Shown in pieces: positions 31,072 through 62,600 of a stretch of DNA of 64,000 nt (the stretch's first letter is position 1; each line of letters starts with the position of its first letter). The translations under genes and the position numbers were made by a program. The notes beneath the pieces are model-generated. The model made no database searches, was not told the origin of the DNA, and worked only from the letters and a program-made list of their open reading frames with translations. Source of the DNA: Catajapyx aquilonaris (Eukaryota); NCBI GenBank assembly GCA_000934665.2, contig JYFJ02001842.1, forward strand, positions 1 to 64,000, read 5' to 3'.

Positions 31072-31406
31072 AACAACAACAACAACAACAACAACAATAA
31101 TAATAATAATAATTTGTACCCCGTGCTAGAGCCATGGGCCCTCTTAGGGGGGTGGGATACCACCATATTTTTTAAATATCTGGAACTCTCACTTTCGTTT
31201 TTACTTCTCTTATATGGGGATGGGTTAGGGACGGAAGGAAGCGGCTGTGGCCTATAATTATGGACACGACCCCGGAATTATCCTGGTGAGACCATGGGAA
31301 ACCACAGAAAACCACGGTCAGGGTCGGCGGCCCCCGGGATTCGAACCCAGGACCTCCCGATTAGCAGTCGGATACCATATCCCCTCCGCTACCACTGCTT
31401 CGGTAG
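31072..31406 (-). mobile_element. tRNA-derived SINE, family A, copy 1, with (ATT)n(GTT)n tail
   Basis: Minus-strand head contains B box GGTTCGAATCC. Microsatellite tail at 31072-31113. Perfect 13-bp TSD CAGTGTGACATAC at 31059-31071 and 31407-31419. Homologous to 38329-38607. Confidence 0.9.
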
Positions 31407-31739
31407 CAGTGTGACATACGTTATGGATGATATGAGTTTGTGGCACTGTGCACCAGTTGCTCAAGAGTTGCACCTCCTGTACTGTACATCTTTGGTGAAT
31501 TTATTGTACCTGCAAACTTTACAATTGCCAGAAGTGGTAGCATGAATTGTCCACATATGGAGCTTGCACTATAGCAGCAGTTTTCAATTACTTGTATTTA
31601 TTGTAGACAGAGCCTTTTAATTCTTGCAAAACTTGGTGGAACTCCTACAATAAAACCTTGTTTCATTTATTATAACTGTAGCGCGTCAGCAAGGTACTTT
31701 TCTGTACCTGACTCATAAATCCATCACTACCAGAAAATC

Positions 31740-41600: not shown

Positions 41601-44600
41601 AATTTTGCTAGAAGGGGCATATGGCAGCACTTCATATTATTCTGTTATGCAACACACTGATCAGATCCACATTGAGAATGCAATAATATGCTACAGTGGT
41701 GATTACCTCTTTCCATATGAGTAATTCATTATTCAGCCTGCTGCACTCAAGATGCACAAGCATGTTCACCAGTTTACTAAATCATAGCATGCATGGTTCT
41801 TGTGCCAGGTGCCAGAAGGCCACACAGGAGCTGGACACAATTTCCAGCCTCGAGAAATGGACCATCCCACTTGGTGTGACCGCTGCGGGGACTTAGTCTG
41901 GGGTCTGGCCACCACTCACTACCTTCGCTGCAGAAGTAAGTATTCACATTTCCATCTGGTATTATTGAGTGATGAAGCTTACATATTGGTCACATTGGAA
42001 CATTGGTGTATCTGCTTATGGAAAGCCACAATTGCAATAGTGTGCATTCTTTTTCTCATGAAGCTAGAGTTTACATGGGTTTTCTCTCTTTCACTTGGGA
42101 TTTCTTGGGGTTTTATTTCCTCATACAATCAAATTCCAATCACAGGGCACTCAAAGAATATGTTTCAACATCAGGTCATTTAAAAAAGGATCCCCCTGCC
42201 GCCAATGGGCCTGTATCAGCCAGTTATTTTATTAGCCTACTTATTGCTCCAAGATAACATTTCCTGGTGCAGCAATTATTACTTTCGAATTTTTGGGGGA
42301 AGAATCTTTTCTGTTACGAAGCATACCCTTTGGCAATGAGCCAGTCCTGCATCTATGCCACACCCCTTGCTTGAGAACAAAGATCCTTCCTGACTCAAAG
42401 CATTTTTAGTCCCTGGGCTGCCCCTGATCCTGACCTGCAGTACGTGCATTTTAACTTGTGAATTTGCTTCTTTATGATTTCCTTGCTGTTCATAGTGATT
42501 GATACTGCCATGCGCCATCAAATGTAATTGATATTGACTTGTGTCGTCAAATGTAATGTAATATTAATGGAACAATCCAATGTATTTTACATAAGAATTC
42601 AAGGTGTCATTGGATGCATTAACTGGACAGTGTGCAGCACTCCATTACCATGTGGGTGTGGTGTAATGAATAATAATCCACAGTAAACATTACTGTCTTT
42701 TATGGTAATTCCTCTGTCATTTTAAATGTAGTTGCCCACTGAGGTACACACACACACCACACCTAGAATGAAACTGCAGTTAGTTGGAATTGAAGTCCAA
42801 TATTATTTACTCGTCAAGTAATGAATGTATTGCACCTCGTAGGAAATGTTCATATAGGCCTAAACAGTGATGCCATGTCCCCTGAGTAGTAGACCATTCA
42901 GTACCTTTCCATTCGACCACCTGCAAACTGTACAAATTTAATTCAAGCAGGCTGCAGCTGGGAAGCGATGATATTCATAACCTGCAGAGACCCAGTAAGA
43001 TTATCCCTTTAGTGTTGCCATGCCTTGGGGATATATGCAGCCAGTGCCAACATCTCTTGCAGCAAGAGCTCATTATTAATGAATGTAATGTGCAAGACCC
43101 CTAGTGCATTTTACACCACCTCTCATGCATCTGTGATGACATGCAGTTTATACCATAATGCAATTTGTGCAGCGTTGCCATGTTTGATGATGATCCAAGC
43201 AGCTTGCCTCCTCGGCACGCTGTGGAATGTCAGGTGGAAAGAAAGGGCCTTTTTTTCCTTCCAATTTTTTTTCCTTCTAAAACTTTCACCTTCCCCAAGA
43301 ATGCAAGCGATTGGTAGGGCCCCGCTGCTGACCAACAGCAGAGGGCACCCCCCTGCCATTGTACAGGCAAGGACTCCCCCGCAACCCGACTGAGGGTTCT
43401 CTCAGTTTGAATCTCGTGCAGCTGCAGGCAGGTGTGTTTCGCCATTCAGCCGGTGATATATTCCACGCGTGTGCCCCGGGTCATCCAACTTATGGGGCGT
43501 TCTTGGTTTCGGTTACATCGGGGGTGTTGATTTGATTGGTGGGACCCACTCTGGAGTTAGGTTGTATTGTCCATTGTGTAAATATGTGTCATCACAAAGA
43601 CATCTCGATAACAATCCGTGATGGCGCGTCTTAACGTCAGATAGGGGCTTAAATGTCATTGCCACCGTCGATGCCTTCATTCTGCAAGGGTGGCGCAATT
43701 TAGTTTGCCCGCAGCCAAGGGCGAAATCAAGGCAGTATATTTGATCCTCCATCATTCATTGAAGCGAAGCAGCAAGAAGCCAATTAGCCTCAGATCATCC
43801 TTATCCGTCCTTCGGCTCCTCCAGAGGGGATGTTGCTAGACGTGCTTGCTTACTTGCTGGCGGGGAGAGAAGGGGTTGTCAGGGCCGTAGCCTTCGTTGG
43901 ACTCGGGCTATTTTTAGGTCGGATTCTAGAGTTGAGGGAAGTTGCTTTCGAAATGGGCGAAAACATATTTTGTCGGGTCTCTTTAAAGATTTGGCGAAAG
44001 GTGGGGATGTGTCCAATTTTGCTATTTTTTGCGGAATTTTGTGTGTGGGAAGCAATTTTGCGTTGAAACCAAATGCGAAATTGGATCTATATTTTTGAGC
44101 GATATAATGTAGGACACTCGTGACGTAGAAGATTGTGCCGAAGGGCTGTACAATTAGCATGTATGTGATTAAGATAGTAATGAAGTGACGCGAGGGAGGA
44201 GGAACTGGAGCAAAATAATCTTGCAAAATTATGTCGACTGTTCTTCCTGCTGGTGTAGTTTATACTTGCGTTTGCTGGGTACTAATCGTGTGCTGCGTTG
44301 ATATTTCGACTTCGCTTTTTCTCATGGATTGCTGCCCTGATATGCCTATGAGGAAGTATGATTCTGGAACTATTCACCCTTGACATTACGTGTACATTTT
44401 TTAACAATACTTTCCCGCCCTGTCATGTGTACAGAGAATTAGTGCGTGACGGAATCGGCCGTCTTCCTTATAAGGGCACTAGGTTTTGTCTTCTGCGACA
44501 AGTGAAAATGCAGAGACTGTTTGTTTTTCTTGCAGTTTCCCATTCTAAAAACGGGTCAAGTTGCATCAGATGTTGCTGAAGATTGACATTAGAGAAGCAC

Positions 44601-47600
44601 TAAAAGGGGGTACTAAACGGAACTCAACAATTGTCTCTTGCAATATATGGCGGACGGAAAGTGACGCTTGAGAGTAAATGAAAACCACACAGTCATATTA
44701 ACTGCTGGAAATGACGTCGTAACTTTCTTACCGTACATTGTTACATAGGACATCACAAGAGCCTGTTATCACGCAAGTATTGGAAACAGGTTCTGCTGCT
44801 TTCTGAATCTTACTTGCCTCTTGCAGGAGCGATATTAGTTTCACAACCCTACATACGCATTTCCCAGGAGATACGATTGTTGTTTACATCTCATGGTTAC
44901 TCAATGCATTCCTCAAGTGTCAAGTCCGAAGTGAAATCTTAGTGTATTGATAAAGGAGTCACGCACAAAGGTTTATGGCTTAAAAATATGCACGTGGTGA
45001 TGATTAATTATTGTAAATACCGGTATCCCAGCTTAATGTACAGAATGAAGTAGCTGTCATGTGCTTATAGCATGGGTTCAGATGAGTTCAGATTCAAACA
45101 TTGCACCTTAAGTGTTGCTGCAATATTGGCCAATAGACAGCGATATAGAAGGACATTCACCTGTGGAATTCATTTATGTTTGCATCTTTATGGCGTGACA
45201 TTTTTATTACTTTAATCGCGAAGGAATCAGCTCCCACATTATTTACGATAATATACATATCATCTACATATTATTCGAGCTGCTCCGTTGAGTGAACGTC
45301 CTCCCAAATTGGCAGCTGCCTGCACAGCAAGCCGTAATTAGGTCACGCGGAATTTCCAAACGGGGCAGCTCAATTTCCGATTGAATTGTAAAAGCGTCGT
45401 CCACTGTCGCGGCCAATGATCCAACAAGACAAATTGATCCCGGTCGCGTCCACGTCACGGCCGCGACTCACATTTGTTGTCTCAAGTCGTTCATCAGTTA
45501 GGATTAGGTCTTGGCGATAACCCGTGTTAGTGCGGATCCATCGATTTGTGGCTGACCCGGTTCATTACGTATAGGGTCGGATGATAACACACGAGTCACA
45601 GTCGTTGCGTCACAATGCATCGGCCTGCAGGGTAAAAGTAGGTCGATTTTAGGTAGCCCATTTTTTGAGTGACATTTGGGCCTGATTTTTTCAGCCGCCT
45701 TGTGCCCACGTTAATGCCGTTTATATGGCCGGACCCGGATAAATGACACTCCGCATGGTAATGCACAGTAGGTGATGCCCTAGTGCGGCACGCCATTCTT
45801 GCCCGTAATTTAGTGGCGTAACAGCCGTCTGGTGGCGGCTGGTCTCGAATTTTTCCGATAGCATCTCTAGTCCGCGCCTGGTATTAGATTACGGGCTTTC
45901 GAAATTGCATTACGTGGCTGCTGCCGTGGCCGTAACTTAAAAGAAAATTGCCGAATTTTCTGCGATTTAATCGTCAGATTATCTGTTGTCACTCTTGCTG
46001 TCATTCTTGGCTATTTCTAGCGTGTGGTATTGTCGTCACGTATTCACTCGAGTGCGTGGGTCTGCAGAGGATTAGTTTTCATTTAGGGGGGCAGGCGCTC
46101 ACTTTTTAGCGTGATATTACCGCTTGTTTATGCCCTGTTTAAAGCGACATTACCCGTCTGGAAGCATTTTAATGTACTGCATGCCACTGCGCATTTAATA
46201 ACACGGGTTTAACATCCGATGCATAAAAAAAGGGGATCGCGGGTCGAAGAATGACGTCAGGGGTGCGGTGCCTGAACCCACGTGATCGGAATCAGAAATA
46301 AGGTTGTTTGTGATTGCGATCGGTTGATCTGCATTACGGGGCATCGATCAGCATCAGTGTAGCCCAGTCCAGAAAAGGAGACGGAAATTGGGCTTTAAAC
46401 AGGTCAAATGTCATACATTTTGTCGCGTTTAATGGTCGGGATTAGAGGAGCAAGAGGTACATCGAATGGAAGGACGGCTGCTGTTAATCAACGCTAATTC
46501 TGGGATACGTGTGGGTTTGGGGGCGCACGTAGGTGTGGCACACATGCTCATATTATTAGGTGCAGGATCGTCTCTTCCGGGTGTGAGGGAGCACCCTGTA
46601 TCGTCTTGTCTGTTTTCACGGACGGGTGGGAGCCATTCAGAGTGACCGTTCCTTCAGCAGGCGCCGACTAAAAGCATTTCTCGTTCACCTGGAATTCTCC
46701 GGAGGTTTCCCCCTCAAGCATCTCACGCTTTTACCACCCATTCCTAAGGCCGTGCAGGTGGTAACAATGTTGATAAAAAAAAGGTGGACCCGGGCCCTTT
46801 GGCATTCTGAAATGCAGCAGTGCGAAATGAGCCGCCCATTGATTGTTGCAATGGGGGAGGCCATGCCCAAGAAATGTATGGTGTCTGAACTGGGTTGAAG
46901 GATGAGGCAGTGGAGATGGGATAGGATCTGGCAAGGTTTTCCGAGGCCGAGCCAGAGAGCGCGTGCGGGCGGTGTGCAGCCAGCATTCCGGACGGACGGA
47001 CCCTGCAAGCTGCTGGCGATCAGTCTGCCTCCGTAACCCTTTGCCAGAAGGTGTGCTCTGTTCATGCGGGATCATACCGGTGTTATTTTAGGTTCGGACC
47101 TAGTGAGTGTATATGTCGGGGTTGAAAGTGCGGGCCCATGCCGTGTGCTTCGACAGTGTATATTGTGACGCCAATGGTTATCGAACCAATGCATTATTTT
47201 GGGAGGCCTTGGTGGACAGGAATGCACGCCCTGATGTTCACCTGTGCCGCAGGAAGGGACGTGCAAATCATGTCTATCGGGCCATCCTGCTGCGTGCCGG
47301 CATTTGTTCTTTGTCCGGAGTTTATGGGAGTTGGCCTAGCTGCTTCGAAGCACCGGAGGAGCGTTGAACTGGCGCTTCCCAGCTGGATGTTTTTACCTGG
47401 TGGTTCTCGGTGCCACATCTGCCTTTTAGGGTCGAGGGAGAACCGTCAGAGGACAGGGGAGAAAATAGGAAATTCCGAAATTCCTTGAAAATTGTTGACC
47501 GTTCGGGGAACTGGTAGGCGGGGAAAAAATAGTCGTAACTTTTCTCGCTAAATTATGCTGGGTAACAATAGGGTTGTGGCAAAATGGTTTTCGTGCCAAT

Positions 47601-50600
47601 TTTGAGCTTCCTGATGTTGGTGCTAGAGGTTAATGGCCATGCAAAAGTACGCGATTGTGCAATCAGGTCAGTGCAAGAGGTGCCCCTGCTTAAGTGCACG
47701 TTATACAGAGGTGTTGACTACTTTTAGATTGGTTGTATAGGTCGATTTTATGCACTCAGGCTGAAAGGTCGTGTCCTCTAGAGGTGAGATCTTTCTCAAT
47801 GCAATAGGTGCTCGTAAATGTATACAACCACGACAGGGTGTCCATTTAGAGTTTCTTCACAGCTACTGTTGATAGGGCGTTACGAAACAGTTGAGGAAAG
47901 GCATGCCAGAAATTAATAGCAAATTGATTGCCTCCTTTTATAGGAACACATTTAGGTTAATACTCGTTGAATCCAAGTCGTGAGATTGTGTGGCACCATT
48001 CATGCTACAAGTATAAACTCTTGTGTTAGTCACCGACAACACGTCAAAAGGCCATTATGTGGGGAAAGTGTGACGCGTGGCAAGGTGCGAGCATATAAAA
48101 CCAACTACGCTCAATGAGCCATTCCTGTACTATGATTGGCTTCTCTCGGTACACTGGAAGGTCAAAAAAGAGGGCATCGTCACATTAGTTGCGGCAACAC
48201 TCAGTCAGGTCTGTCAAAATAAATGAACATGGGAGGTTGCCAAGATCTGTTTCTTGTAAGTTGTAACTATTGTCCATGAGGGATTGAGAACACGAACTTG
48301 AAAAATTGCACCAGTGGAATTGCTGGACTTCCCGTTGCATTATCAGATATTCAAAAATCTGCATAATCAAGCGATGGAATTATTCGTACCATATTGGCTC
48401 CCTCCTATACATGATTCATTACTGACCCCCTCCGCGCAGTATATTTGGAACCTATCGCCTAATTTCGTGGTTGTCCATTAACCTAATCGTGTTTCCGATC
48501 GTACTGATGTGCACTTGCTCATGTAAGTGCCCTCGTTATGATCTGTCCGTAAACGTGAGCGGCGATTTCCGAGTCTTAATGCGGGTTAAATTCTTCGCCG
48601 TAGCTTGTTGCCAGGGAAAAGGCCTCTCCTAAATTTAGGTTGAGTGATGGCTATTGGGTGATGATAAGCTGCGGGAAACTCAGAAGCGTTTCGTCTTGTT
48701 GGTTTTACGACGGACCATGAGTCATGTGCGAAATGGGTGGGGCATGCAGCAGTTCCAGTAGCAAAATCCAGGTCACTTGTGCATGGTGGAGTTGAACAGA
48801 TTACACCCGGATTAGACCCATAATCATGACCAAGATTAGAGATAACGTCCCCAAATCATAAGGGATTCTGCACAGTTACTCTTTTGACAATTCGCAAGCG
48901 TTTGCCATCAATATTGTCAGGTGTCTAAATCATACATTTGCTCAAGCCGGCTGGAGCTCTCAGTCGTAAAATATTCAAGGTTTGTAGCTGGCTTTACCCG
49001 GAAGCAAGCCGTGAATCCGGAAGAGAATCAGTGTAAGAGGCCAGTTCAAGTACCCATTAGTGTATTGAATCCCCATGTCTGAATGTAACTTGGTGTGTTG
49101 AGAATACGCCTGATTGGAATGCCGCGTTGCAAGCCATTTAAGACCAACAGGATGAGATATATAGACTATACGGTATGGAAATGAGGGCCTCTCGACTCCA
49201 GATGCGTCGATAATCAGCTCGATCTATTCTTTAATTAGGATTGTTGCTCCGATATTAATGCAGGTGGTTGAGAAAGCTCGGCTGCAGCCTTAAGTTGGCA
49301 TATGCTGCAGTGGGACTGCATACTGCAGAGGCGAGAGAATGTGGATAGTAACCCAATCGATCTTACAAGAAAGTTTTAAAAAGGTTTAGGTGGACCTGCT
49401 GAGGTACGTTTGAGTCACGTGAAGAGGTGACATATCCGGATACCAAGGAACAAAACACAGCCGTATTTTGGAACCGAAGTTGGGTTCACAAAGCTATGGA
49501 TTAAAACTAGTTTTTTTTGTGCGACCTGCCTCAACTATTTTGCGGAGTTTCTGTCCGTGTCGCGACAGTTTTTTTATTGTCAAAAGTTAACGTGGTGACT
49601 TTAAGCCCTCCGGTGGCATTTTTAAAGTTGGCCTTTTCACCTGGAGGCTGAGATAAAGTGGTGCAGAACGTGAGGGATTTCAGGTTCTGTCATGTCCCAT
49701 GGGACACGTTTTGGTGTCTGCCAACTTTAGAGCCGGAGTATTTGCGGGGACCTAGTCTTTCGGACACTCCTTGATCCTCATTTAGTGCAGATATAGCCGG
49801 AAAAGGTCGTGGATGTTTGCATTTAGTCGCGGAGGTACAGGTCACTAGAGAAAATTTGCAGAGCTGGTTGCGTTGTGAGCGATTATAGTGCAAAGAAGAG
49901 GGGGGGGGGGGAACTTGTGACGTAATTGTAGTCGGTGTATATGTATTGCCCGGAAACTCAAACAGTCGCAGATTTTTTTTTCCAGGCTTCTCATTGTGAT
50001 AAAGCAGCGATAACATCGTTTGGCGTGCTAATTCCTGAGGCATTAGAGATTTAATCTGTACAGGAACTTGGGCTAACAGGAAACGAAGCTATTCGTAATG
50101 AAGAATCCGAAGTACTTCGTGACGAAAAGCTGTAAACCGAACTGTTAATTTGGCACGAAAGGCTTTGCGTATCCATTTATACAGCAGTTTTGGAACGAGA
50201 TTGACGAATCGGATCTATTTTAACGCTGTCGTGTAAGCCAAGGGTATTTCTGGATGCAAATAGTACACCTTGTTTATCAGAAAGTGTATAAGGAAAATAT
50301 TGCTTGGTATGAGAAATCATAATCGGATAGTAGCATTTTTTGTGATATTTTATTCCTTGGCTCTCAGCAAAGTCCTCATTATTGCAGGAGTAAAACAATA
50401 CTTGCACAAATGAACCCGAAAAAGATGGAATTGCCTTACGACATGGATTCCAACACTAACGAACTTCATTAGTAAAGCTTGTCTGGGATTGTTGGACTAG
50501 GAGCGAGAGTGGGCAATGCTTCTTTGGCTAATGCGATGGGGGCGAAGAATACTTCAGGCGGAGTTTTAACCATGAAAAATGGAACCGAATTAGGGAATGG

Positions 50601-53600
50601 TGGTAGTTGACCCCAAACGCCAGGTTCATTTCTAATTCTGGGATCGATTCCGAGTTCTATATTTGGTACAGCCACTTGTTCCAAAGAGGCGGATCTTTGG
50701 ACGTCAGGCCACAGCACATCATTCAAGTGTTGCAAAGAATCAGTTTGATATCAGATTCCATGCGGTATCTGTACAGTATTAGCTCCACTGCACAGTTGTT
50801 GAGGTTTGCCTGCAGCAGTTGTGTCGTCACCAGTTTAGTTATCGGCGATTTTGTATGTCGAACACGTACTATCCGACATCCGGTGGACATGCCTTTTGCT
50901 TAATCTGATTGCAAGAAATTCCAAGTAATTTACGACACACGATTTCCACTTTTTATTTGGCGCAGGTGTAGTCGCTTTCCCAGCCGCATCAAAGACTCCC
51001 ATTAAAAATTAAGCTTTACTTCTTTTTAGTCACCAATCTGACATGACACCGATGACCAATAAGAAATTTAAAGGGCCAAAAGGGGGAATGTGAAGATTTA
51101 TACTTCTTCCGTCAAATATGCTGTTCACTCACCCGTGACTGCGAATTACTCAGACACGTACACACACCGTACAGATTAGATGAAGTTGAGTGGGTTTGTT
51201 AGATTCCGTATCATTCGCGATGTAAGTTCGGAAGGATGCGGACCTGTGTAGGCGTGCTGTACCGTTCAGAGTATATCCGCTAACCGACCGGAATTCCGAC
51301 CTGGTTCTTCGCTCACGGCCATGGGATAGCATGGAACATCTCTGGGGTTGATCATTCTCCCAGAGCGATCTCGGGGGGAGATTGGAAATGTTTTGGTATA
51401 CCCGGACCGTGTAGTTTATAACGTGTCTTCTGATTCAATCCCGGCGGCATCGATTCGGCGTTGCAGCGCGGTGTAATTGGTCTCTGGCGGCATGGGCAAT
51501 GCATTTCCAATTCTAAGCATCGCCATTAGCACCTGTGCAGGGGTTTAATAGCCTCCGCTGCATTTCCTTAGTGTTGATACAAGTGCCTACCGAGTGATGC
51601 GGGTGTAGCCGACAACATGGGGTTGACGGAGAGCACAGTGGACAAATCCCCGTCGCATGGGGTCAACAGCCCCGCGCCCAAGTCCAAGTCCAACCTGGCT
51701 GTGCACTACCTGCTGGGGGCCCTTCCGCCTATGCCCCAGCCCAAGGGCGGGCGAGGGCCGGCCCCGGGGCAGCACCAGCACGCGCCGCCCAAGAGGAGGG
51801 ACACGGTGCCCATCTTCCAGAAGCCGGACAATAAGCCCAACAGGCTAGTGAAAGGACTGACCGACTCGGACATCCGTAACTCGAACACCTTGCTGCCAAA
51901 TTTCCATCCGACGGACAGTGTGGACAATAAGCGTCCTCAGAAGCAGCAGCACCAGTCCAGATGGGCCAAGAAGGAGCCGAAGCCGAACAAGAGCAGCATC
52001 GCCACTCAGACCACGTTGAACGGTTACCATCGAAGACCTGCCTCGACAGGACCGATCATGGAGGACGCGACAGTGTCGCTGGTCGACGGGAATGACGATC
52101 ACATGCTTGGAGGCGAGTTCACGGGGAAAGTGCTGATGCTGTCCAACTCCATATTTTCGTTCCAAAAAGTGCGGAGGAACCCAAAGGACAAGCGGAAAAG
52201 GAACTATTCCGTTCCTGTGGACCCATTCACCTCCGATGCTGCCAAGATTGCCGGTGCCTCGCTCCACTCAGCAGGTAGGACTCAAGGACTTGCTTTGGGG
52301 ACCACTCTGCATGTCCTCACAAAGGTGGAGGGTTCACCGACTTATCCTATACACACACCCCCAAAGGACACTGCCCAATTCTCTTTATAAATATTGATCA
52401 GGTAGACTGTAGAGTAGTATCTCCATCGCTTTTTATGACGAAGAAACAGTGCATGGCAGACACAATTTTTGGGGGAGAAGGGACGTAGTGTATATTTGTC
52501 AGTTGCAGTGCCGCAGAACAACTAGTTTATTCGTGGAAAAAAGGGAAGTAATTTGGTCCCTCTTGGCATGGAGACTTGCTGCTATGGGAGCAACCATTTC
52601 ATAATTCATGGTTGTGTGTTCACAAGGGTACGATCCTGGCTTGCGTCGGAGGGGAAGAGAAACGCAATGAATATCCATCGCGTTGCGTGCATTATGAATG
52701 GAATATACGCTTCACTTTTCCACCCGATTTTCCCATACGGGCCAGGTGATTGCACTAATATTGTGCACCCTTCCCCCATGATTCAGGCTCACCAACTTGA
52801 TTACTAACAAGCGCATTTGTGTGTAATAGTGCAACTTAAATAATGAAATGTTAGAACGAAGATGTTGGGGAAGACGTTCAATCACAGATGATGGCTATTC
52901 CGAGCCCGGATTTTTTTGTAAGTTTTCTGATGACAATTGATCAATAGACCATCCTCCTCGTTCTTCCAATCCATATTAGGACCCAGCCAAGTTTGAAGTA
53001 TAGATGATTAAAAATATGAAGACTCTCTCTAAGAGGACTAGTCTCTGGAGGAGGGATAAAAAGGGTTTGGGGGAGGGGGGGGGGGAAGCTCAGGGTATCA
53101 TGTCAGATGATTCATTATTTTGTGATAGGAATGGCAGTAGTATGAGTTTTATCGCAATACTTCATTTGAGGCTGAAGAGAGGATGAGTGACACGTCTCGG
53201 AGAGACCAATTATTGGTCGGGAGAAAAGTCTGTCTATTCCAGTTATGAATTATAGCTGTACCTGAATCTGCACTCAGCGCCGCAATGAGAATTCCGCAGT
53301 GAGAACTGTCGAGTATAGTGCCAGAAACTTCACACGGGAAACCTGATAGTCCCATTATTATTGCAAAATTATCAGAGTCAGGAAGGGAATGGTTATTCCG
53401 TCGATTCGAAGAAGCCTGTTGGAGTGTAGGCGGCGCTGCGCTGTAGGTGCGAAAATAGAGTAGTGTTGCAAGTTCTGTGATAATGACCCAGCCACGCACA
53501 AGAATTTAATCAGCCTGTTTATACTTGCTACACGTGGCAATCTTATAGCCTTCGCATGGTTGAATTGAGTGTTACGACGTGTTGACAATTTCGCAACCCA

Positions 53601-56600
53601 CGTGTAGGCGTCTGGGCCTATTCACAAAGCCGTAAAACGAAGTTGACAGACTGCGTATAATAAATTTTGCGGATGCAAATTCGGAATGGGAAACTGCTGT
53701 CGACAGCACAGAATAGTTGAGAGAACCATTCTTGCACGTAAACAATGGCATATCCTTGAAACGACGGTGCCATGCATACATCCAGCACGTTGCGTCCTTC
53801 GATGGTCAGGTCGCTCGTTGCTGATGGTGGTGGCAGAAGAGGCTGAGGGGGGAGAGACGTTCTCGAATGCTAATGGTGTCCCACATCTCCATGAAGAATT
53901 GAAGAGAGCTGAGGGAGCGTGAAATTTTTATTGTGTACACCCGCATTCTAGTTGTTCTCCTGCAGGTGAAGCAGGAAAAGGCAAGCGTGTCGAAGTGGGA
54001 AGCAAGGAGAAAATTTCCCAATGAAAATGGCGTGGGAAGGAATAAATTGGTTTCCGCGCTGCCAGCCATAGCAAAAATAGGCCTTGGTGCAGCTGAAGTA
54101 AAGGCCTTTTGACTGGATTGTTTTGAGCCTGTCAGAAAGCTGCGAAAAAGCAAAAAAAAAGGGGCGAATTGTTTACAGCTATTTCGATGCTACGATACGG
54201 GCCGTAATTACACGCTTTTAGCACGCTATTCAGCGCAAAAAGGATATATTTTGGTTTTATGCAAGTTATTTGGCGAAATGGTGTCCGGAGGCATCCGGAT
54301 TTCCGTCGAATTGGCCACTTGAAAAAGGTGCCACAGTTCACGAACCGAATAAGTGTTCTTGAAAGGCGTGGCTTTCGACCTAGTTTGTCTGAAATATTTG
54401 CAATTACGGCGACCCCTAACACTGCTGGATGCTGGGAGGTCCCTTAATGTGTCCAATATCGGCAAAAGTGAGGCGTCGGAGAGCGTTAATTCATTCAGGG
54501 AAAGTCGCGCTCCTGCCAAGAATTTTCATCGGATGAAAAGTGTAATTATGAATATCGGATTCCGTAGCCAAGTTGCAGGATTCGAGCGAGAATTGTTCCT
54601 TTATTCACTTGCACATGTTTGTCAGGTTTTGGCAAGTGGACCGGTATGTTCCCGTGTCTATTTCTGCCCTCCAGTTCTTTTGAGACAGGGTGCGCGATAT
54701 GCAGAAGAGTTGCCGCCAAGACAGATCCGTGCAGTCTTGGAGAGGCTTCAAGGGTGCCGGATATTTGGTTGAACGTGCTCCGGAGAAGAAAAAGGCCCGG
54801 AGGCACCGGAATCGGGCGCAATTAGCGAGTTGCTGGCCAGTTCCACTAATTGCTTTTGGTGATGCCCCAGGTTGAATGGGGAGGCTCCAGCAGGAGTGAA
54901 GTGTAGCGCACAATAGAAATCGTGCTGGATTGGCCCTGAGAGATGGAGGAAGAGCCATCATCCAGCAGCGGAAATAAGGGGACAGGAATCCATCGGTCGT
55001 CCGTACTTTTGAAGCTGAGCAAGCCGACCACTTCCATATACCTTTCGTATTCCCCGAAGGAGAAGTGTTTCCGTGTGGCCTTCATCGTGTTAGGTGTGTG
55101 TTTGCATCCTGCAGAGTCGCATGCCTTACCCTGGCCTTTTAGCAGTTTGACACCAGTTTGCATAGTCTGCATAGCATAGAAATGGCTCTCCTAATGCGGG
55201 GGACTCTTGCTCAGTGCGCTGGAAAGTGATGTACTACAGTAGGTCAGGTTCGTGCGCAGTGTCACAGAGAGCTACAGAGTAATCAAACTGATTTAAGACC
55301 TGTTTGCAAAGGGGCTGCTGCTGCTTGGAGGGACGTCACTGAATGATTGCTGCTGGGAACTTGGAAGGTTACGTCGGTTGAGTAAGTGCGTGACCGTAAT
55401 GGTATTGGGGAGGGTAATGCGGTAATATGGCCCTAATGAACCCGGGAGGGCGTAAGCTTATTAGAGAAGGTGAGTCCCTGGTTCCCGTTAAACTGATTTA
55501 ATCCGGTATGAGATATAAGCACGTTGCGAGGTTCTTCACGTTTCGTCGCAGAGTACGGAGCTTTCAGGCAGGATATTGGTGCATGATTCTGGAGGTAGAA
55601 CTAATACTGTATCGAGTGTGTTTTTGGATTGTCTGTGTAGCGAACGGCTCTGCATTATTTATTATGAAAAGGGATCATAAAATAATTAAAGCAGCAGTAT
55701 ATAGAAAGACCACTGAAAATCACACCGGGTGTTGAATTATACAGGGTAGTGTCAAGCACATTCTCCTTCATTTCATATACAGTATATTGCACTAATTGCA
55801 GCTTACTAATCGTATGAGTAAACTATGAAACACTTTAGCCATAAAATTAAATGGCCTGTAGTAAGTTTAATAACTGGTTATATTGCCGTGATTTATTAGT
55901 TATTAGGTATTAGGGTCGTCAAAATTTATTATTCGTCTTTCACATTGAAGGTTTACAACCCGACAATAATTTGACGTCTACAAACTCTACATCGATGAGC
56001 TGTTTTTGTCACATCAAGAACTTTGTTCGTCAACGACATTTTTTGTTTCCATGTGTACCACAAAAATTGAAGATCTGTTCAAGTGAAAGTCCAAGTACTT
56101 TTTGGTTAGAGACAACGTAAACTGAGCCCCCATTTTGGGCGGCGGTATTTTGTAGCTGCATCGTTTTCCGGAGAAAAGGGAGGAAAAGGTGCCTAACACT
56201 TGAAAGATATACTCGTACTTTCCCAGGCTGTCGAATTTATGGCGACATTTCAGTGACCCGTTTCCCCATCCAATACAATAAATGCGTGCATCTCTGTAAT
56301 TGCTCTCGAGTAAATATAGCCTAGATCTGAAAGAGCTCGGAACAGGGCCTTCACTCTCGCTCGATTTTACGAGCAAGTAAACTCGGAATGGAGGTCTGGA
56401 TTTTCTCGAATTTAATTGCAGCAGAGCTTGTTGACGGTGCGAATGCAGCTTTTCTGCGGATAGATCGTGATTGTGGTGTCTCTTGTCAATTATGACGAGG
56501 GGCGAGGGGAATCTATTGGCATATATAGCCTGCATAATGCCCGTATATTCACGGGGAGGATGGGATCATTGCTTCGTCCCAGGTAATCGACCGTAACGTA

Positions 56601-59600
56601 ATACCTGCCTATTTTTGGTTCCGGATGTTTCCCAGAGGGATTACGTATAGAGCAGGTAGCATGGGTCTGATTTGCAAACGGTGTGAAGCTTTTTGCTCGC
56701 AGCAGACGTATATTTTCTTAGTGAAAAAACGACAGCGGGGAGAGAGAAAAGTTGACAGAAATAGCCGACGAGGAGCAGTGACCCATCTTACCGGTATAAG
56801 AAAAATGTCCAACAAATGTCTGACAAAACTTTGCTGGCGAGCCGGATCCTCCTTTTCAATTCGGGTGTAACGACGCTCGTTTCATTTGGACAAATCTCCC
56901 TCAAATGGCGGATACAGCAGGGCGCGTCTCTGTCTCCAAAAAAAAATAGAGAGGCTATCAAAGTTGTAATGATGTTGACCGCTGCACTCGACACTTGTAG
57001 TGCCTTTTATAGATCCGGCAATTGACGAAATTGTGTCTATTACATCACTCGTGCTGCAGGATGATCAGTGCATGGCGCCATTAACGGGCAGGTTGCATTT
57101 AAAATATCTGGAGCTGGAAACTAGATCATATGAAACCAATCAGCTAAGCCTGATTGCTTTTCGTACTATAGCTTGCCACATGGCGGAGTTCATGCTTTAA
57201 GTTGATTACCTGCATACCAGCAGAGGAATGGTTCAACATGGTAGGAGTATGTTGATGTAACGTACACGGTTTGCTATACTTGGAAAGGGGGGGAAATCCG
57301 CTGTGTTTTTCTGTATATTTCTGATTCAATGTCATGTATTTGGTAACAGTTGGCATACGAAGGTCGACCTTGTAATGCGGGTTGGGAAATAGCTTAACTC
57401 ATCCATGATACTGATTTAAAATCAGTTCCTGATATTTGAAGCGGGAGTTTTCCTTTAAAGAGCGACGGGTACTGTACAGTATCGTGCAGTGGATAAGCTG
57501 CTGGTTTAGTAATATTTGCAAACTTAATAGCTGCCTTCCTCGTTCGGTTGCAGTGGAACTGTAGAGCAGTTTAGGCTGAAGGGTGGTGCAGAATTCAGAA
57601 GGCGGACTTGCCTTCATGCAATGCAATGAGTGTCTTTTCTATACGTTATGCACAACACTGTCGTCACTGCGACATTTCCACCGCTGCAGAAAGTTGGGAC
57701 GCACAAGCGGTGCCAGATAATTTGGAGGTTCCTAGGTTCCTCATTCACTGGAGTTAGGGAGACTCCGGGGAACAAATAACACGGCCTTGGTCGACTTGAA
57801 AATAATTATACATTGTGCAGTACCTACGCAGTCCCAGCCACTATCCAGCTGCTGGGTTCCGTCTGGTTATGTTCAGTCAATTGTCGTTATTGAATGTTTT
57901 ATTCAGAAACATATGTGGCCACGATTCTCGTCCTGGCGTGCTGATCAGCACCAAGGCCACACCTTCGGTTTCACATATATAGGCTGCATTTCTGAATGCC
58001 GTTAATGGAATGCAGCATAATGTTGGCCAAACTGCTGCGTAGAGTGGCAAATATTATTATTTGTCAGCTGTACACTCTTGAAATGGGCGCAACTCTGGAT
58101 TATAACACATACCGTACTGATGAACAACAAAACGCGAAATCGATTCATATCTATAATTGGCCAAATCCGGTGCGTGATAGGTAAATAAACTATGAATAAA
58201 TGATTGTGCGTTTTCAAACCGATCGCGATCCCAGCGGCAGCAGTTTCATTTTAAACACTCGGGTAAAATTGCAAAAGTCCCAAAAGTGTGGCTGATTTAA
58301 TCTGGACTGATTCGCAAGGGGGGTTTCGAGCTGAAAAAGGTCTTGGGGAGCCCGAAACCAATCAGCATTCTGGAAACTTTTTCAATGGCCCGTGGCCACC
58401 GGATGACACGGAAGAACATCTGTGGACAGGCCATCTTCCGGAAGAAAGCTCTCCGGATTTTCACTCGCTTAGGTAATTGCGAGTGGTCTCCGGAAACTCT
58501 GTGCAGTACTGCCTGCAGGAGACATTTTCCTTCTGCCAGACCTCATTTCCAGCGAACGTTTCCTTTTTCCCCATTATTTCCACCCACCCAAAGCTTGGCT
58601 TCGACTATATACTGAGCACTGGAAATGTGACCCACTCCAGGGAATTATGGTTGTGAGTTGACCTGATGGATGTATTTTTGTGTCTCTTTTCAGACTGCAA
58701 CTTCACGTGCCACCAGGGATGTCGACAGGCCGTGACCCTCGATTGCGAAAGTTTAGAGCAGAGGTCACCTAGCGATGCCTGTTGCTCCCATCCTGACCTG
58801 GCCTCGCTTCTTCCACCGGAGGGACATCAGGTGCAGGTCGAGGAGGTCACCGAGGCCCACCTAGAGGCGGAGATACAAGAGGTTCCTCCTTCGGTGGGTC
58901 ACTTTGTCTATATGCACCTGTCAAGTCGATCAAGTTGAAGGTTCAAATTAAAAATTAAATAGCAATTTAAAAACTGCTGTCGCGAGCAAGCTTTGCATTT
59001 CCTTGCCAAAATTGCGCCAATTTGCATTCACGGAAGCGTGATGCACGTCTATTCTAATGGCTTTCGTTGACTGCCCTTCATTGTGGATGGGAGAGCAATG
59101 TAATGCCCGGAAATGAGTCTATAACCGAATCCAGATCCAGTTTCCGGTTACCTGGTCCGACAGGTGCCATGTCACGTCACGTTTGCTGCTGTATCGGTCC
59201 GAGTTCGACGATCCGATCGGGTCATGCACCTTTGCAAAGCGCGCGCTCTCTATAGCCAAAGTATTAGTCATCGAGGCCTTCCCTATGATATGCGGAAAGG
59301 CTATTGGATAGTCTGCCTATCGACGGTTGGCTAGACCCCCCCGCTCCCATCAGAAACACGTCACACAAACTTATTGACCACACTGCAAACTAGATCGGAC
59401 CTTGCTCTTGCCACACATTCGATGGTTTCCTGCCGTCCAACATGGTGTTTCGAACTCTGCTATCGGTGTTCCAGCCTTGTATCTCCAGTCGATTCCCAGC
59501 CTTTCAGTGCTATCGGGACGAAAACGGGAATTTTGTAAGCGCGGGCAGGAGGGTATACTATAGAAGTGACACACTTTCGTCCCGAATGACATATTGTCCT

Positions 59601-62600
59601 TGCCATTTTCAGCCTGAAGAGGAGGAGAGTAAATCGGAGGATGTTGAGCCGGAAGGTCGTAACTTGGCCGTCCGAATCCAGTATTACAACAGCCATGCAG
59701 CTCATGGATTGGAGATGACTCTGGTAGGTGGTCTCCATTAGCCTGCATTGTCGTTCCAGTTGTAAATGCCCCCGATTTTTGTATGCATGAGACTCATTTC
59801 GGGGCCATTATTTTTTGACCGATCCGAAGGTTTCGTAATGCACCGTGTCGCAACGGAAGCATTAAATGAAGTTGTGGAGATTCCACCTAAATCGATGTGA
59901 TCGATCTTTTGTGTATTATTGGACAACCTTGGCCTGTTAAACCACGCTAGAAAAATAATGTCAACCGCATTGTACCTGGTGACGTGCAATAAATGTGGTT
60001 GAAAAAAACCGCGATGACGGAAGTGTAACTTCCTGTCTGGCTGTTATCACCGGAACTGGAGTGGATATACCGCAAAGAAGGATCGCGGGGACCAACATCC
60101 CGTAGTAAGTTGTTAGACGTCGAGAACTTTGACACGGCTTCGCACCGGGGTTGATTGGAATATTAATCAGTTGGGTAGGATACGGGCATCGATTCGGGGG
60201 AACAAAAAGGTTTTGTAGGGACCATGGCGACGGGTGTGGACGACGGGGTTTTGCAACGTCGGCTGCCGACCTTGCCCAAGGACTCCAAAGACAAAGTATG
60301 CTGGAAAATTGATTTAAGGGCGGACGTCATCTGCTGGTTATGCCACCCACTGTAGTTTTAGGTGTTCCTCTGGGGGCGTCTGGGCAGGACCGTGTGATTC
60401 TAGGGAGGTCCTTGCGAATCATTAAATTGTGGGTATCGGGTGGGTGCTGTAGCACCTTGAGCGGCAGCCAGAAGCCTGGTAGAATGTATTTGGTGTGCGG
60501 GGGGAATGAGGGCAATTGGATTTTAGCTCGTGGCCGAGGCGATGTAATTGCATCTAGTATTTTGCGCGTGTATGTGCAGTCGGCTCGAGTGAAATTCTTG
60601 CTTGCTCACCAGAGTAACACATATCCACACAAAAATTTCAGTGTAACCTAGATCATTTTTTTGGGCAGGCTCCCAATTCAGAGTAATTGGCCTCCTTTTT
60701 TAAATGTTGGGTTCCGTATTTTTGTTGGCCTGATGGAAAGGTGGGCCTATGTGGTATTTTTTTTAATGTATGTGTTTGATGGAGCGGCGAGTTCGCGTGT
60801 GGGGAAGTTGACTCGGCCCGGACATATACCTAGAGGGAATTGCCGACTATTTCTGGTGCTTGTGTGGAAAGGAGGTCGATGTGTATCACTGCACACCAAC
60901 CACTCTCATCTAACGCCAATAAAACCAGCCCTTTACCATGCTGGACTATATAATAGCAGTTTAAATTTTATTAATGTGCACTTAAATCAAAGGAGAACCG
61001 GAATGTATGGGCATGAAATTCAGGGAAATAATATTATACCTGTTAGCGGTTATTTGTTACCCTTAAATTATGGTGATTAAAATTTTCCATCAACTTACAG
61101 GAAGCAGATGGAACTACATTCCGTGGCTTCATTCGGGTGCACCTGAACTTGACCAGACCAATCAACGTGGTTGCAGGGACCCGCCCCCCTTCAATTTATG
61201 ACATCTTGAAGGAAGATGACACTCTGGAGAAGAAGACTCTCACCACCTTCTACCTGCCAAGGGACACAGTCAGAGCACTACATGTCACCAGGTATGCCAG
61301 AAGTGGATGCAAGCAGATAGGTGAAACCAATAGGTTGTTCACTAACCTGATTGGTGTTTGTAAGAAATACAGTAGAACCCCGATTATCCGTCACCTACGG
61401 GACTGGGGCATTGTTGGAGAACAGAAACGGTCGGATAATCCGAAGAGCAAAGGAAAACACAACAAAAAGCATATAAAATCATGAAATAATGCACAATATT
61501 ACGCTTATGAGCTTTTCTAAGAAATAGTGAAGGATTTATCTTTTACGTTCACACTCTGGTGTTTAAAATTTAACTAAGGCAATACAAAACAAATGATTAG
61601 TAGGCCTGCATTACAGTATTTAATGAGCAAAGATGCATTTATTGCTGGAGTGGGACTGTCAGATAAATGGGGTTCTATCTACTGTCGGTGATATGAAAGG
61701 TTTGTGGGAAGATGATATGATCATTATTCTTTAGCCCTCAGCCAATTGACTGTCACTACTAATATCACCTCAACCCATTTTTCACATAACATGTATGAGC
61801 TTAAGAATTAGGAGTCAATTAAAACCTGAAGTGCATTATGAATTATTACTATAGACTGCACCGTGTCACAAGATGCACTCCAGATGTGCACTGCATAAGC
61901 TTACCTTATACAGTTATACTGCATAATTCACTGCATTCTAACGTACTGCAATGTCTGTAAAGAAATTTTTGGGCCAGGGAGTTATTTTCGGTTGCCAGAA
62001 AATGTTTGGCAATAAGCCTGTCGTTAGTGGGATTAACTAATATTTTGGGTGATATGGATGCCTCCTGAAGCCATCTTAGCAGTGGCGGATTTACGCATGT
62101 GCGGAGTGTGCGGCCGCACAAGGCCCAACGGAAAATGGGGGCCCAACGACGCGGACGTAAAAAGTAAATAAATAATAAAATAAATAAAAATGCCGGCCAA
62201 GGTGGATTGCCCGTGCAAAGGAGATATTATTTTGTTAAGGTGAATTTGGTGGATAGCAAAAATCGTAATATTTGAATATGTCCAATCGAATGCTACTGAC
62301 ACAACAAATGAAGATCTGCACGCCACATAAATGCCGCATTACCCATCCCAAAACACCCCAGCTCGCCTATAAGCTTGTGTGACCTTGAACCCCAAAAAAC
62401 TATGTTCTGGGATTTTTTTTGACAGTTAGGGACTTTTTCCCTGTACATTTAGGGATAACCTCATCGTTGGGTCTGGCAACACTGGATCACATGACAGGGG
62501 GCCTCACCGATTTTTGCACAGGGCCCCAGGAAGGGAAAATCCGCCCCTGCATCTTAGATTGCAGTAATCAATGCACAGATACTAGAAACGAGACCATGGC

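What the first reader, a model, noticed from the sequence alone, without database searches (positions are those of the whole stretch)
41936..58693. Array of candidate variable first exons inside the intron that splits the RASSF C1 domain
Seen: the C1 zinc finger is split by a 16.8-kb phase-1 intron. Inside it are several ATG-to-donor units, all ending in phase 1, that would splice in frame onto exon 58694: 51617-52274 (CAG|GTAGGA), 53686-53737 (CAC|GTAAAC), 54943-55093 (TAG|GTGTGT), 55427-55469 (AAG|GTGAGT) and 58385-58472 (TAG|GTAATT). The intron also looks CpG-rich compared with the CERK introns. Known: vertebrate RASSF1A/1C and RASSF5A/5C use alternative promoters to include or drop C1. Inference: this may be an expanded variable-N-terminus plus constant RA-SARAH system that destroys C1 and swaps in different targeting peptides on a Hippo/MST-binding adaptor. 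Caveat: one third of random ATG-GT pairs are phase 1, so only 51617 is strong on its own.
Basis: partly seen in the sequence, partly recalled or inferred. Interest (0 to 1): 0.75.

Follow-up and report, generated by a model that had tools for sequence, protein, structure and literature searches.

The report
Alternative start exons inside RASSF zinc-finger intron
An arthropod RASSF gene (an adaptor for the Hippo growth-control kinase) carries, inside the long intron that splits its zinc finger, two old and conserved alternative start exons, one opening with a fatty-acid-anchor type signal, while the three other proposed exons look like chance.

Summary
The sequence observation holds. A RASSF1/5-type gene (C1, RA and SARAH domains) lies downstream of CERK. 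Its C1 finger is split between the two cysteines of the C-x-x-C pair by a 16,758-base phase-1 intron (41936-58693). All five ATG-to-GT units have the stated phase and donor.

Two of the five are real, conserved alternative 5' coding exons.

- **51617-52274** starts with MGLTES. Seven of the 87 RASSF homologues found also start with MGLTES, lack the first C1 half, and in six of them join the second C1 half through Asp (cockroach, termite, decapods, a mantis shrimp).
- **54943-55093** matches the N-terminal exon of a termite isoform. It shares 20 of 32 residues (pairwise E 1e-13), and the match ends at the donor.

A termite-like genomic contig holds both exons in the same order and strand, with phase-1 GT donors.

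The other three units (53686, 55427, 58385) have no support.

No RNA data could be obtained, so use of these exons in this animal is inferred.

The isoforms lose four of the eight zinc ligands. The MGLTES form probably gains an N-myristoyl membrane anchor, which is inferred and not shown.

This is a variant of the known RASSF1A/1B/1C alternative-promoter design. It is already present in automatic annotations of other arthropods, and I found no paper describing it.

The parts
33517..33717 (+). Upstream 5' coding exon of the C1-complete (A-type) isoform. Bounds are approximate and taken from the tblastn match.
   Evidence: tblastn of cockroach isoform X1/X2 residues 39-105 gives E 3.7e-05 and 2.7e-04.
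41809..41935 (+). Exon for the first half of C1 (H, C, C, C ligands: HNFQPREMDHPTWCDRCGDLVWGLATTHYLRCR). The donor is GAA|GTAAGT. The acceptor was not settled (41809 or 41816).
   Evidence: Pfam C1_1 E 1.6e-07, profile positions 1-31 of 53. tblastn to P0003 gives E 4e-13. Sequence read.
41936..58693 (+). Phase-1 intron of 16,758 bases that splits the C-x-x-C pair of C1 and hosts the alternative 5' coding exons.
   Evidence: No intra-window or tandem repeats in it. No Rfam family.
43501..61000 (.). Block with near-normal CpG content (o/e 0.59-1.20 in 500-base windows), flanked by CpG-depleted sequence.
51617..52274 (+). Alternative 5' coding exon 'MGLTES' (219 codons + 1 base, donor CAG|GTAGGA, junction codon G|AC = Asp). 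A possible acceptor (ttccttag|T) lies 45 bases upstream of the ATG, so a non-coding leader exon may precede it.
   Evidence: - MGLTES is identical to the start of 7 of 87 homologues, none of which has the first C1 half.
- A second collinear island, TGKVLMLSNSIFSFQKVRR, matches cockroach TAKVTMLPGGSCAFFKVRR at 10 of 19 residues.
- MG[LS]TES occurs once in six frames of the window and 0 times in 300 shuffles of the intron.
- No Pfam family.
54943..55093 (+). Alternative 5' coding exon 'MFRSS-type' (50 codons + 1 base, donor TAG|GTGTGT, junction codon G|AC = Asp). The conserved core is 54994-55089.
   Evidence: - 20 of 32 residues identical and 29 of 32 similar to P0001, pairwise E 1e-13.
- tblastn against the window gives E 1e-11 to 3e-11.
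- The match ends at the donor.
- tblastx to termite-like contig L002 gives E 6e-09.
53686..53737 (+). Unsupported.
   Evidence: Donor scores -0.5 bits. No homologue found.
55427..55469 (+). It has the strongest donor among the ATG-linked units of the intron but no homology support.
   Evidence: Donor scores 8.0 bits and is the only ATG-linked donor of 5 bits or more on either strand of the intron. No homologue found.
58385..58472 (+). Unsupported.
   Evidence: Donor scores 3.8 bits, the same as chance-level units. The only overlapping match is a 25%-identity tblastn alignment that runs on into the C1 exon (E 0.005). L002 does not reach this region.
58694..58893 (+). Constant exon that begins with the second half of C1 (C, H, C, C ligands: CNFTCHQGCRQAVTLDC) followed by an acidic linker. 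It is the acceptor for the C1 exon and for both alternative exons.
   Evidence: Sequence read. tblastn matches.
59613..59723 (+). Constant exon (PEEEESKSEDVEPEGRNLAVRIQYYNSHAAHGLEMTL), the helix region ahead of RA.
   Evidence: Sequence read. The tblastn match to homologues is weak.
61101..61289 (+). Constant exon at the start of the RA domain. Bounds are approximate.
   Evidence: 84% identity over 63 residues to termite, cockroach and damselfly RASSF1-like proteins.
62778..63101 (+). Two RA-domain exons with a short intron between them. Bounds are approximate.
   Evidence: Pfam RA E 5.4e-12. tblastn matches.
63810..63956 (+). SARAH-domain exon.
   Evidence: Pfam Nore1-SARAH E 5.5e-15. tblastn gives E 3e-19.

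Best explanation
This is an arthropod RASSF1/5-type gene with at least three alternative 5' coding ends that share one constant RA-SARAH body.

- **Upstream promoter.** It gives the full protein with an intact C1 zinc finger (exons at about 33.5 kb and 41.8 kb).
- **MGLTES exon (51617-52274).** It lies inside the 16.8-kb phase-1 intron that splits C1 and has its own ATG.
- **MFRSS-type exon (54943-55093).** It lies in the same intron, also with its own ATG.

Each alternative exon ends in phase 1 with a G and splices onto exon 58694, giving Asp before CNFTCH. These isoforms keep only the last four of the eight zinc ligands, so the C1 fold is lost.

The MGLTES isoform has an N-terminus that fits the N-myristoylation consensus, followed by a long disordered region that ends in a basic V-R-R motif.

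**Proposed mechanism (inferred, not shown).** The isoform is lipid-anchored and holds the SARAH-bound Hippo/MST kinase and the RA domain at membranes. This replaces C1-dependent regulation.

The role of the MFRSS-type peptide is unknown. The three other candidate units are most likely chance ATG-GT pairs.
For: **Gene identity**
- Pfam C1_1, RA and Nore1-SARAH all hit.
- 87 RASSF homologues were found, the best at 84% identity and from arthropods.

**MGLTES exon**
- 7 of 87 homologues start with MGLTES (Periplaneta X3, Cryptotermes X3, Panulirus, Procambarus, Oratosquilla, two Macrobrachium).
- None of the 7 has the first C1 half. 6 of the 7 show ...D-C-x-[YF]-T-C-H at the junction.
- A cluster mate from Palaemon has the same design.
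- The V-R-R-[KN] island near the exon end is shared by the window, cockroach, Cryptotermes and two shrimps. The termite-like contig L002 has V-H-H-K at that place.
- MG[LS]TES is unique in the window and absent from 300 shuffles.

**MFRSS-type exon**
- Pairwise E is 1e-13 to P0001. The same N-terminus occurs in Cryptotermes PNF42582.1 (P0092).

**Genomic confirmation**
- 6 of the 7 loci returned by the metagenome scan (L001-L006) hold the MFRSS exon followed by G|GTATGT.
- L002 and L003 also hold an MGSTES exon (3109-3433, G|GTAGTG) 4.7 kb upstream on the same strand. This is the same order as in the window.

**Selection**
- Between three termite-like groups the exon differs at 2-3 of 106 sites with no indels.
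- The flanks differ at 20-46 of 358-399 sites, plus indels.
- 3 of the 4 distinct exon substitutions are at third codon positions.

**C1 loss**
- In AF2 models built from the same 44 sequences, the second C1 half scores pLDDT 35-46 in the MFRSS isoform.
- It scores about 83-88 within the full C1 of the same species.
Against: - No RNA evidence exists for this animal. No RNA run was listed, so splicing onto 58694 and promoter use here are inferred from other species.
- The 219-residue MGLTES exon has no significant full-length homologue. It got 0 hits among 1.84 billion representatives and none in the word-based search of longer proteins. Pairwise BLASTP to the cockroach or termite isoform is not significant on its own (E 0.15-0.6).
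- Homology for that exon therefore rests on two short collinear islands plus position, phase and the junction residue.
- Most comparison isoforms are automatic gene models. I could not see their RNA support.
- Myristoylation is judged only from a recalled consensus (G2, no charged, aromatic or Pro residue at 3, S/T/A/G/C/N at 6, no Pro at 7).
- Low AF2 confidence does not prove disorder.
- Core-promoter motif matches near the exons are at chance level.
Confidence: 0.8

Rival explanations
1. The intron is an expanded array of five or more variable first exons, each with its own promoter. All of them are used to put different targeting peptides on the RA-SARAH body.
For: - Two units are confirmed.
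- The Cryptotermes annotation holds a further alternative N-terminus joined to the same exon (P0091, MKTSEG...SFM|D) and an internal-donor variant (P0095).
- Two shrimps have short N-termini joined to the same exon (P0050, P0053).
- There is a mild excess of phase-1 units: 7 against 2.8 +/- 1.7 expected, P = 0.035.
- The 55469 donor is the strongest ATG-linked donor in the intron.
- The whole block has normal CpG content.
Against: - Units 53686, 55427 and 58385 match none of the 119 proteins held, nor contig L002.
- Unit 53686 has a poor donor.
- The third termite exon has only a weak match in the window, and it lies outside all five units (46665-46691, E 0.67, no in-frame ATG). It has no match in L002 either.
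- No duplication or paralogy exists among the units.
Confidence: 0.12
2. The alternative exons are non-functional. They would be transcriptional noise or gene-model artefacts copied between annotations, and only the C1-complete protein matters.
For: - No RNA data for this animal.
- Most comparison proteins are predicted models.
- The MGLTES exon body evolves very fast.
Against: - The MFRSS-type exon is 63% identical in protein between this animal and termites, with the donor at the same codon position.
- It is more conserved than its flanks among termite-like contigs, and the changes are mostly at third positions.
- The start is MGLTES in the window and in every protein form, and MGSTES in the termite-like contig, from decapods to insects, although the rest of the exon diverges.
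- P0001 is an independent Logan assembly with the spliced form.
Confidence: 0.05
3. The 51617-52390 open frame is a separate nested gene or a transposon remnant that merely sits in the intron.
For: It is the longest open frame in the intron (270 codons stop to stop) and has no Pfam family.
Against: - Orthologous N-termini are fused to RASSF bodies in 7 of 87 homologues.
- The frame meets a phase-compatible donor at 52274.
- No repeat copies occur in the window.
- The exon was not scanned against transposon or phage libraries.
Confidence: 0.03

Closest known systems
Human RASSF1 isoforms A, B and C (alternative promoters). Source: review PMC2586335, passages read.
   Same: - One gene gives a C1-containing form and C1-less forms that share the RA and SARAH exons.
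- RASSF1B uses a different 5' exon (1-beta) spliced onto exon 2-alpha-beta, the exon it shares with RASSF1A. By my recollection that exon carries the second C1 half, which would make it the same splice-in point as here.
   Different: - The review states that RASSF1B encodes only RA and SARAH, so its 5' exon adds no peptide.
- RASSF1C's own exon (2-gamma) joins exon 3, downstream of the whole C1.
- Here both alternative exons are coding and keep the half finger in the protein.
- The vertebrate C-type N-terminal motif (recalled, not tested) is not evident in either exon.
RefSeq and GenBank isoforms of arthropod 'ras association domain-containing protein 1(-like)': Periplaneta americana X3 (XP_069693750.1), Cryptotermes secundus X3 (XP_023712440.1) and PNF42582.1, and the 1,400-1,700-residue 'uncharacterized proteins' of decapods and a mantis shrimp.
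   Same: - Same MGLTES start.
- Same MFRSS-type exon (termite).
- Same junction, Asp followed by C-x-[YF]-T-C-H.
- Same exon order in a termite-like contig.
   Different: - The MGLTES exon is 219 codons here, about 121 in cockroach and termite, and more than 1,100 in decapods.
- The MFRSS-type exon here starts 16 codons further upstream and lacks three of the four termite cysteines.
- I found no paper on these isoforms.
Drosophila dRASSF (CG4656)
   Same: It is a C-terminal RA + SARAH adaptor that binds Hippo. Its N-terminal zinc finger is said to resemble C1 (review PMC2586335, passage).
   Different: No fly sequence was compared here. I did not test whether flies have the alternative exons.
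Clustered variable first exons (protocadherin or UGT1A type; recalled)
   Same: Several 5' exons lie in one region and each is spliced to common downstream exons.
   Different: Those arrays are tandem paralogues. Here the two confirmed exons are unrelated in sequence, and no repeats are present.

Membership tests
C-terminal RASSF (RASSF1/5 type) | C1 zinc finger N-terminal to RA | tested here: met
   Pfam C1_1 E 1.6e-07 on 41788-41934. The second half is read at 58694 onwards.
C-terminal RASSF (RASSF1/5 type) | RA domain followed by a C-terminal SARAH domain | tested here: met
   Pfam RA E 5.4e-12 and Nore1-SARAH E 5.5e-15, in this order on the + strand.
RASSF A/C-type alternative-promoter isoforms | A 5' exon with its own ATG that replaces the C1-coding start and joins the common exons in frame | tested here: met
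   Met by homology to spliced isoforms of other species and by phase. Not shown by RNA in this animal.
RASSF A/C-type alternative-promoter isoforms | Own promoter or TSS upstream of the alternative exon | not testable with these tools
   No RNA run was listed. Inr+DPE matches are at chance level: 3 in 64 kb, one of them at 51211.
RASSF A/C-type alternative-promoter isoforms | The alternative exon joins downstream of the whole C1, as in RASSF1C | tested here: not met
   Both exons join the exon that carries the second C1 half. This resembles RASSF1B instead.
N-myristoylated proteins | Met-Gly start with a small or uncharged residue at 3 and Ser/Thr-type residue at 6, no Pro at 7 (consensus recalled) | tested here: met
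   MGLTES(T/S/N) in the window and in the 8 distinct protein forms examined. MGSTESS in L002.
N-myristoylated proteins | Myristate actually attached, with membrane association dependent on Gly2 | not testable with these tools
   Needs labelling or a G2A mutant.
Tandem variable-first-exon arrays | Variable exons are paralogues from tandem duplication | tested here: not met
   Self-blastn found no repeat in the intron (0 of 26 intra-window pairs fall there). No tandem repeats.
Tandem variable-first-exon arrays | Many (more than two) used first exons | tested here: inconclusive
   2 of 5 units are supported and 3 are without evidence.

The most novel reading that the evidence does not exclude
Pancrustacean RASSF would have an ancient, selectively maintained isoform in which the regulated C1 finger is replaced by a constitutive N-myristoyl anchor plus a fast-evolving disordered arm. 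That arm is 120 to more than 1,100 residues long. The isoform would place the Hippo/MST-binding SARAH module permanently at membranes.

A second conserved 32-residue module (the MFRSS type) would give a third localisation or turnover state. The CpG-normal intron would then be a multi-promoter hub to which lineage-specific start exons, such as 55427-55469, keep being added.
Probability: 0.3. Interest if true: 0.6.

Novelty: new variant of a known kind. Interest (0 to 1): 0.45.

Why it matters
RASSF proteins link Ras-type GTPases to the Hippo kinase. How they are brought to membranes, and what C1 contributes, is still debated.

A form with a conserved lipid-anchor type start and a deliberately broken C1, kept from decapods to hexapods, would act as a natural 'C1-off, membrane-on' switch. 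It can be tested in cockroach, termite, shrimp or springtail systems.

It also shows that the intron inside C1 hosts alternative 5' exons in arthropods, as exon 1-beta of RASSF1B does in humans. Genome annotators should expect these small exons there.

Tried and rejected
- **RNA evidence.** The look-up of sequencing runs on 51400-61399, kind rna: no RNA holder was listed. Read laying therefore could not be used.
- **Own genome.** None is held.
- **MGLTES exon as a query.** It gave 0 hits among 1.84 billion representatives and none among longer proteins in the word-based search. Pairwise BLASTP was not significant.
- **P0001 residues 1-40 as a query.** It found only itself. The termite copy sat inside another 90% cluster and came from the listing of cluster members.
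Whether chelicerates or Odonata have these exons stays open.
- **Third termite exon (P0091).** It has only a weak window match at 46665-46691 (7 of 9 residues, E 0.67). A GT sits at the same offset, but there is no in-frame ATG and the donor is poor. It has no match in L002. I treat it as chance.
- **Core-promoter motifs.** They occur at chance level.
- **Rfam.** Nothing in the window.
- **A zinc-less 'pseudo-C1' formed by the MFRSS-type exon.** AF2 gives pLDDT below 50 for residues 1-101, and the termite cysteines are not conserved here. The idea has no support.
- **Literature.** Five searches found no paper on arthropod RASSF isoforms. One search was badly framed and is uninformative.

Full report
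**Context**

The window is eukaryotic. On the + strand it carries a ceramide kinase gene: PH_CERK at 20326-20619, DAGK_cat at 23308-23934 and CERK_C at 26007-26309.

Downstream lies a RASSF1/5-type gene. The first C1 half is at 41788-41934 (Pfam C1_1, E 1.6e-07). The RA domain is at 62760-63302 (E 5.4e-12). Nore1-SARAH is at 63705-63998 (E 5.5e-15).

A search with the RA exon 61101-61289 found 87 proteins. All named ones are RASSF1/5-like, and nearly all are from arthropods. The best reach 84% identity, from termites, a cockroach and damselflies. The animal is therefore an arthropod.

Other AI notes on the same genome name a springtail as the closest annotated relative. I did not test that.

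**The observation**

The first C1 exon ends ...HYLRCR + A at 41935, with donor GAA|GTAAGT. The next coding sequence starts at 58694 with AC TGC AAC TTC ACG TGC CAC..., behind the acceptor ttttcag.

The intron is thus 41936-58693, 16,758 bases, phase 1. It falls between the two cysteines of the C-x-x-C pair.

- The upstream exon holds the ligands H, C, C, C.
- The downstream exon holds C, H, C, C.

All five listed units have the stated ATG, phase 1 and donor strings.

CpG o/e is 0.59-1.20 in every 500-base window from 43.5 to 61 kb. It is 0.09-0.45 at 41-43.5 kb, 0.19-0.46 over most of the CERK region at 20-33 kb (30-32 kb: 0.61), and 0.36-0.55 in most windows of the 3' RASSF exons (one reaches 0.80).

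**Chance level**

I scored donors with a crude position matrix whose frequencies I recalled rather than fitted. At 3.8 bits or more, I counted distinct donors preceded by an in-frame ATG and an open frame of at least 30 bases.

| Sequence | Phase 0 | Phase 1 | Phase 2 |
|---|---|---|---|
| Intron, + strand | 5 | 7 | 2 |
| Intron, minus strand | 0 | 1 | 2 |
| 200 Markov shuffles | 2.7 (SD 1.7) | 2.8 (SD 1.7) | 2.9 (SD 1.7) |

P(7 or more in phase 1) is 0.035. This is a mild excess.

Unit 53686-53737 has a poor donor (-0.5 bits). Unit 55427-55469 has the only ATG-linked donor of 5 bits or more in the intron on either strand (8.0 bits).

**The MGLTES exon (51617-52274)**

By itself it has no detectable family:
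- no Pfam hit;
- 0 hits among 1.84 billion representatives;
- nothing in the word-based search of longer proteins.

However, 7 of the 87 RASSF homologues begin with MGLTES. They are Periplaneta americana isoform X3, Cryptotermes secundus isoform X3, Panulirus ornatus, Procambarus clarkii, Oratosquilla oratoria and two Macrobrachium species.

None of the seven has the first C1 half. In six of them the N-terminal region runs straight into Asp followed by C-x-[YF]-T-C-H, the second C1 half. A Palaemon cluster member has the same design.

In the window, the exon's last base G plus AC of exon 58694 also gives Asp.

A second island near the exon end is collinear. The window has TGKVLMLSNSIFSFQKVRR and the cockroach has TAKVTMLPGGSCAFFKVRR, 10 of 19 identical. 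The V-R-R-[KN] part recurs in Cryptotermes and in two shrimps, while the termite-like contig L002 has V-H-H-K there.

MG[LS]TES occurs once in all six frames of the window and never in 300 shuffles of the intron, which has 313 ATGs on the + strand.

Pairwise BLASTP of the whole exon against the insect isoforms is not significant (E 0.15 and 0.58 for the N-terminal island). The case therefore rests on the islands, their order, the position at the very start, the phase and the junction residue.

Exon length varies greatly: 219 codons here, about 121 in cockroach and termite, and more than 1,100 in decapods and the mantis shrimp.

**The MFRSS-type exon (54943-55093)**

tblastn of all homologues against the window gave one unexpected strong hit. 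P0001, a Logan-assembled protein, matches 54988-55089 with its residues 1-34 (E 8e-09).

Pairwise, 20 of 32 residues are identical and 29 of 32 similar (E 1e-13). The match ends at the donor: window AFIVL|D-CNFTCH against ACIVE|D-CHYTCH.

Cluster members added a named copy, Cryptotermes secundus PNF42582.1 (P0092). They also added a variant that uses an internal donor (P0095), another N-terminus on the same acceptor (P0091), and one joined further downstream to the RA exon (P0094).

**Genomic confirmation in another lineage**

A scan of metagenome contigs with the exon alignment returned seven loci. Six of them (L001-L006) are termite-like and hold the exon followed by G|GTATGT. The seventh was a weak partial match.

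L002 and L003 also carry an MGSTES... exon at 3109-3433, ending GAA G|GTAGTG. It lies 4.7 kb upstream of the MFRSS exon (8143-8248) on the same strand. Order, strand, phase and the terminal G match the window, where the two exons are 2.7 kb apart.

Among the three sequence groups of these loci:
- the exon differs at 2-3 of 106 sites with no indel;
- the 400-base flanks differ at 20-46 of 358-399 aligned sites and carry many indels;
- 3 of the 4 distinct exon substitutions are at third codon positions.

This is the pattern of a coding exon under purifying selection.

tblastx of the whole window intron against L002 found only this exon (E 6e-09). Nothing resembling 53686 or 55427 was conserved. 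L002 does not reach the region of 58385.

**What the isoforms lose and gain**

Both alternative exons remove H, C, C, C of the C1 finger.

In AF2 models built from the same 44 sequences, the second C1 half scores pLDDT 35-46 in the termite MFRSS isoform, and residues 1-101 are all below 50. In the C1-complete isoform of the same species, the C1 region scores 67-88 in 10-residue blocks. This fits loss of the fold, although low confidence is not proof.

The MFRSS-type peptide is not a hidden zinc-binding half. Three of the four termite cysteines are absent here.

The MGLTES start fits the N-myristoylation consensus, which I recalled. The window and the eight distinct protein forms examined read MGLTES, and L002 reads MGSTES. 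The rest of the exon diverges beyond recognition. Such a pattern is typical of a modification signal.

My mechanistic proposal is therefore a lipid-anchored, C1-less adaptor that keeps the SARAH-bound Hippo kinase at membranes. This step is inferred.

**Are they first exons?**

Both coding exons have a pyrimidine-rich AG shortly upstream of the ATG: ttccttag|T 45 bases before 51617, and gccccag|G about 75 bases before 54943.

The cockroach and termite X3 proteins each carry two RefSeq accessions. That is consistent with transcripts that differ outside the coding part.

They may thus be second exons behind non-coding leaders, so 'alternative 5' coding exons' is the safer term. Core-promoter motif matches are at chance level.

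**Comparison with what is known**

The review PMC2586335 (passages read) makes three relevant statements:
- human RASSF1A and 1C come from two CpG-island promoters;
- RASSF1C's exon 2-gamma replaces the C1 exons;

An alternative 5' exon spliced onto the exon shared with the C1 form therefore has a human precedent, but a non-coding one. That exon 2-alpha-beta carries the second C1 half is my recollection, not the review's wording.

A brachiopod (Lingula) also has non-C1 N-termini joined to D/N-C-N-Y-T-C-H. This hints that the intron is an old site for alternative starts.

I found no paper on the arthropod isoforms (for each I saw listings and abstract openings, and passages of two papers). They exist only as automatic annotations.

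**Verdict**

Two of the five units are genuine and conserved, and three are unsupported.

The system is a variant of RASSF alternative-promoter usage and not a new kind of variable-exon array. The conserved myristoylation-type start is the most interesting part and is readily testable.

Noticed in passing
window 20326-26309 (+): A ceramide kinase gene (PH_CERK, DAGK_cat and CERK_C exons) lies directly upstream of RASSF on the same strand. Its region is strongly CpG-depleted (o/e 0.19-0.46 in most windows).
   Followed up: partly
window 7108-7449 (-): An open frame matches the Pfam protein phosphatase 1 inhibitor family (PF14895, E 2.9e-08). This is probably an exon of a gene on the minus strand.
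   Followed up: no
window 1164-2459 (-) and 11420-12778 (-): Two long open frames (432 and 453 codons, stop to stop) have no Pfam family at E 0.001. They could be genes or mobile-element remnants.
   Followed up: no
window 31229-31542 and 38334-38655 (+): Two stretches translate to similar peptides (...PGFEPRTSRLAVGYHIP... and ...PGFDPRTSRLAVGHHIP...), which suggests a dispersed repeat. All 26 intra-window repeat pairs lie outside the C1 intron.
   Followed up: partly
window about 31040-31080 (+): A run of 13 Asn codons in one frame, i.e. a trinucleotide microsatellite.
   Followed up: no
window 46665-46691 (+): RLKAFLVHL resembles RLKASLIHL of a third Cryptotermes alternative N-terminus (P0091). 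A phase-1 GT sits at the same offset, but there is no in-frame ATG, the donor is weak and E is 0.67. Probably chance.
   Followed up: partly
window 51211 (+): One of only three Inr+DPE-type motif pairs on the + strand of the window lies 406 bases upstream of the MGLTES ATG. About 1.5 such pairs are expected per strand by chance.
   Followed up: partly
proteins P0052, P0056, P0058, P0062, P0063, P0115: In decapods and a mantis shrimp the region between MGLTES and the half C1 has grown to 1,100-1,270 residues of low-complexity sequence, annotated only as 'uncharacterized protein'.
   Followed up: partly
protein P0094 (Cryptotermes PNF42578.1): The termite annotation also has a start exon joined directly to the first RA exon, which skips the half C1 altogether. 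No counterpart was found in the window (best E 4).
   Followed up: partly
proteins P0079 and P0081 (Lingula anatina): A brachiopod RASSF has non-C1 N-termini joined to the second C1 half. Alternative starts inside this intron may therefore predate arthropods.
   Followed up: no
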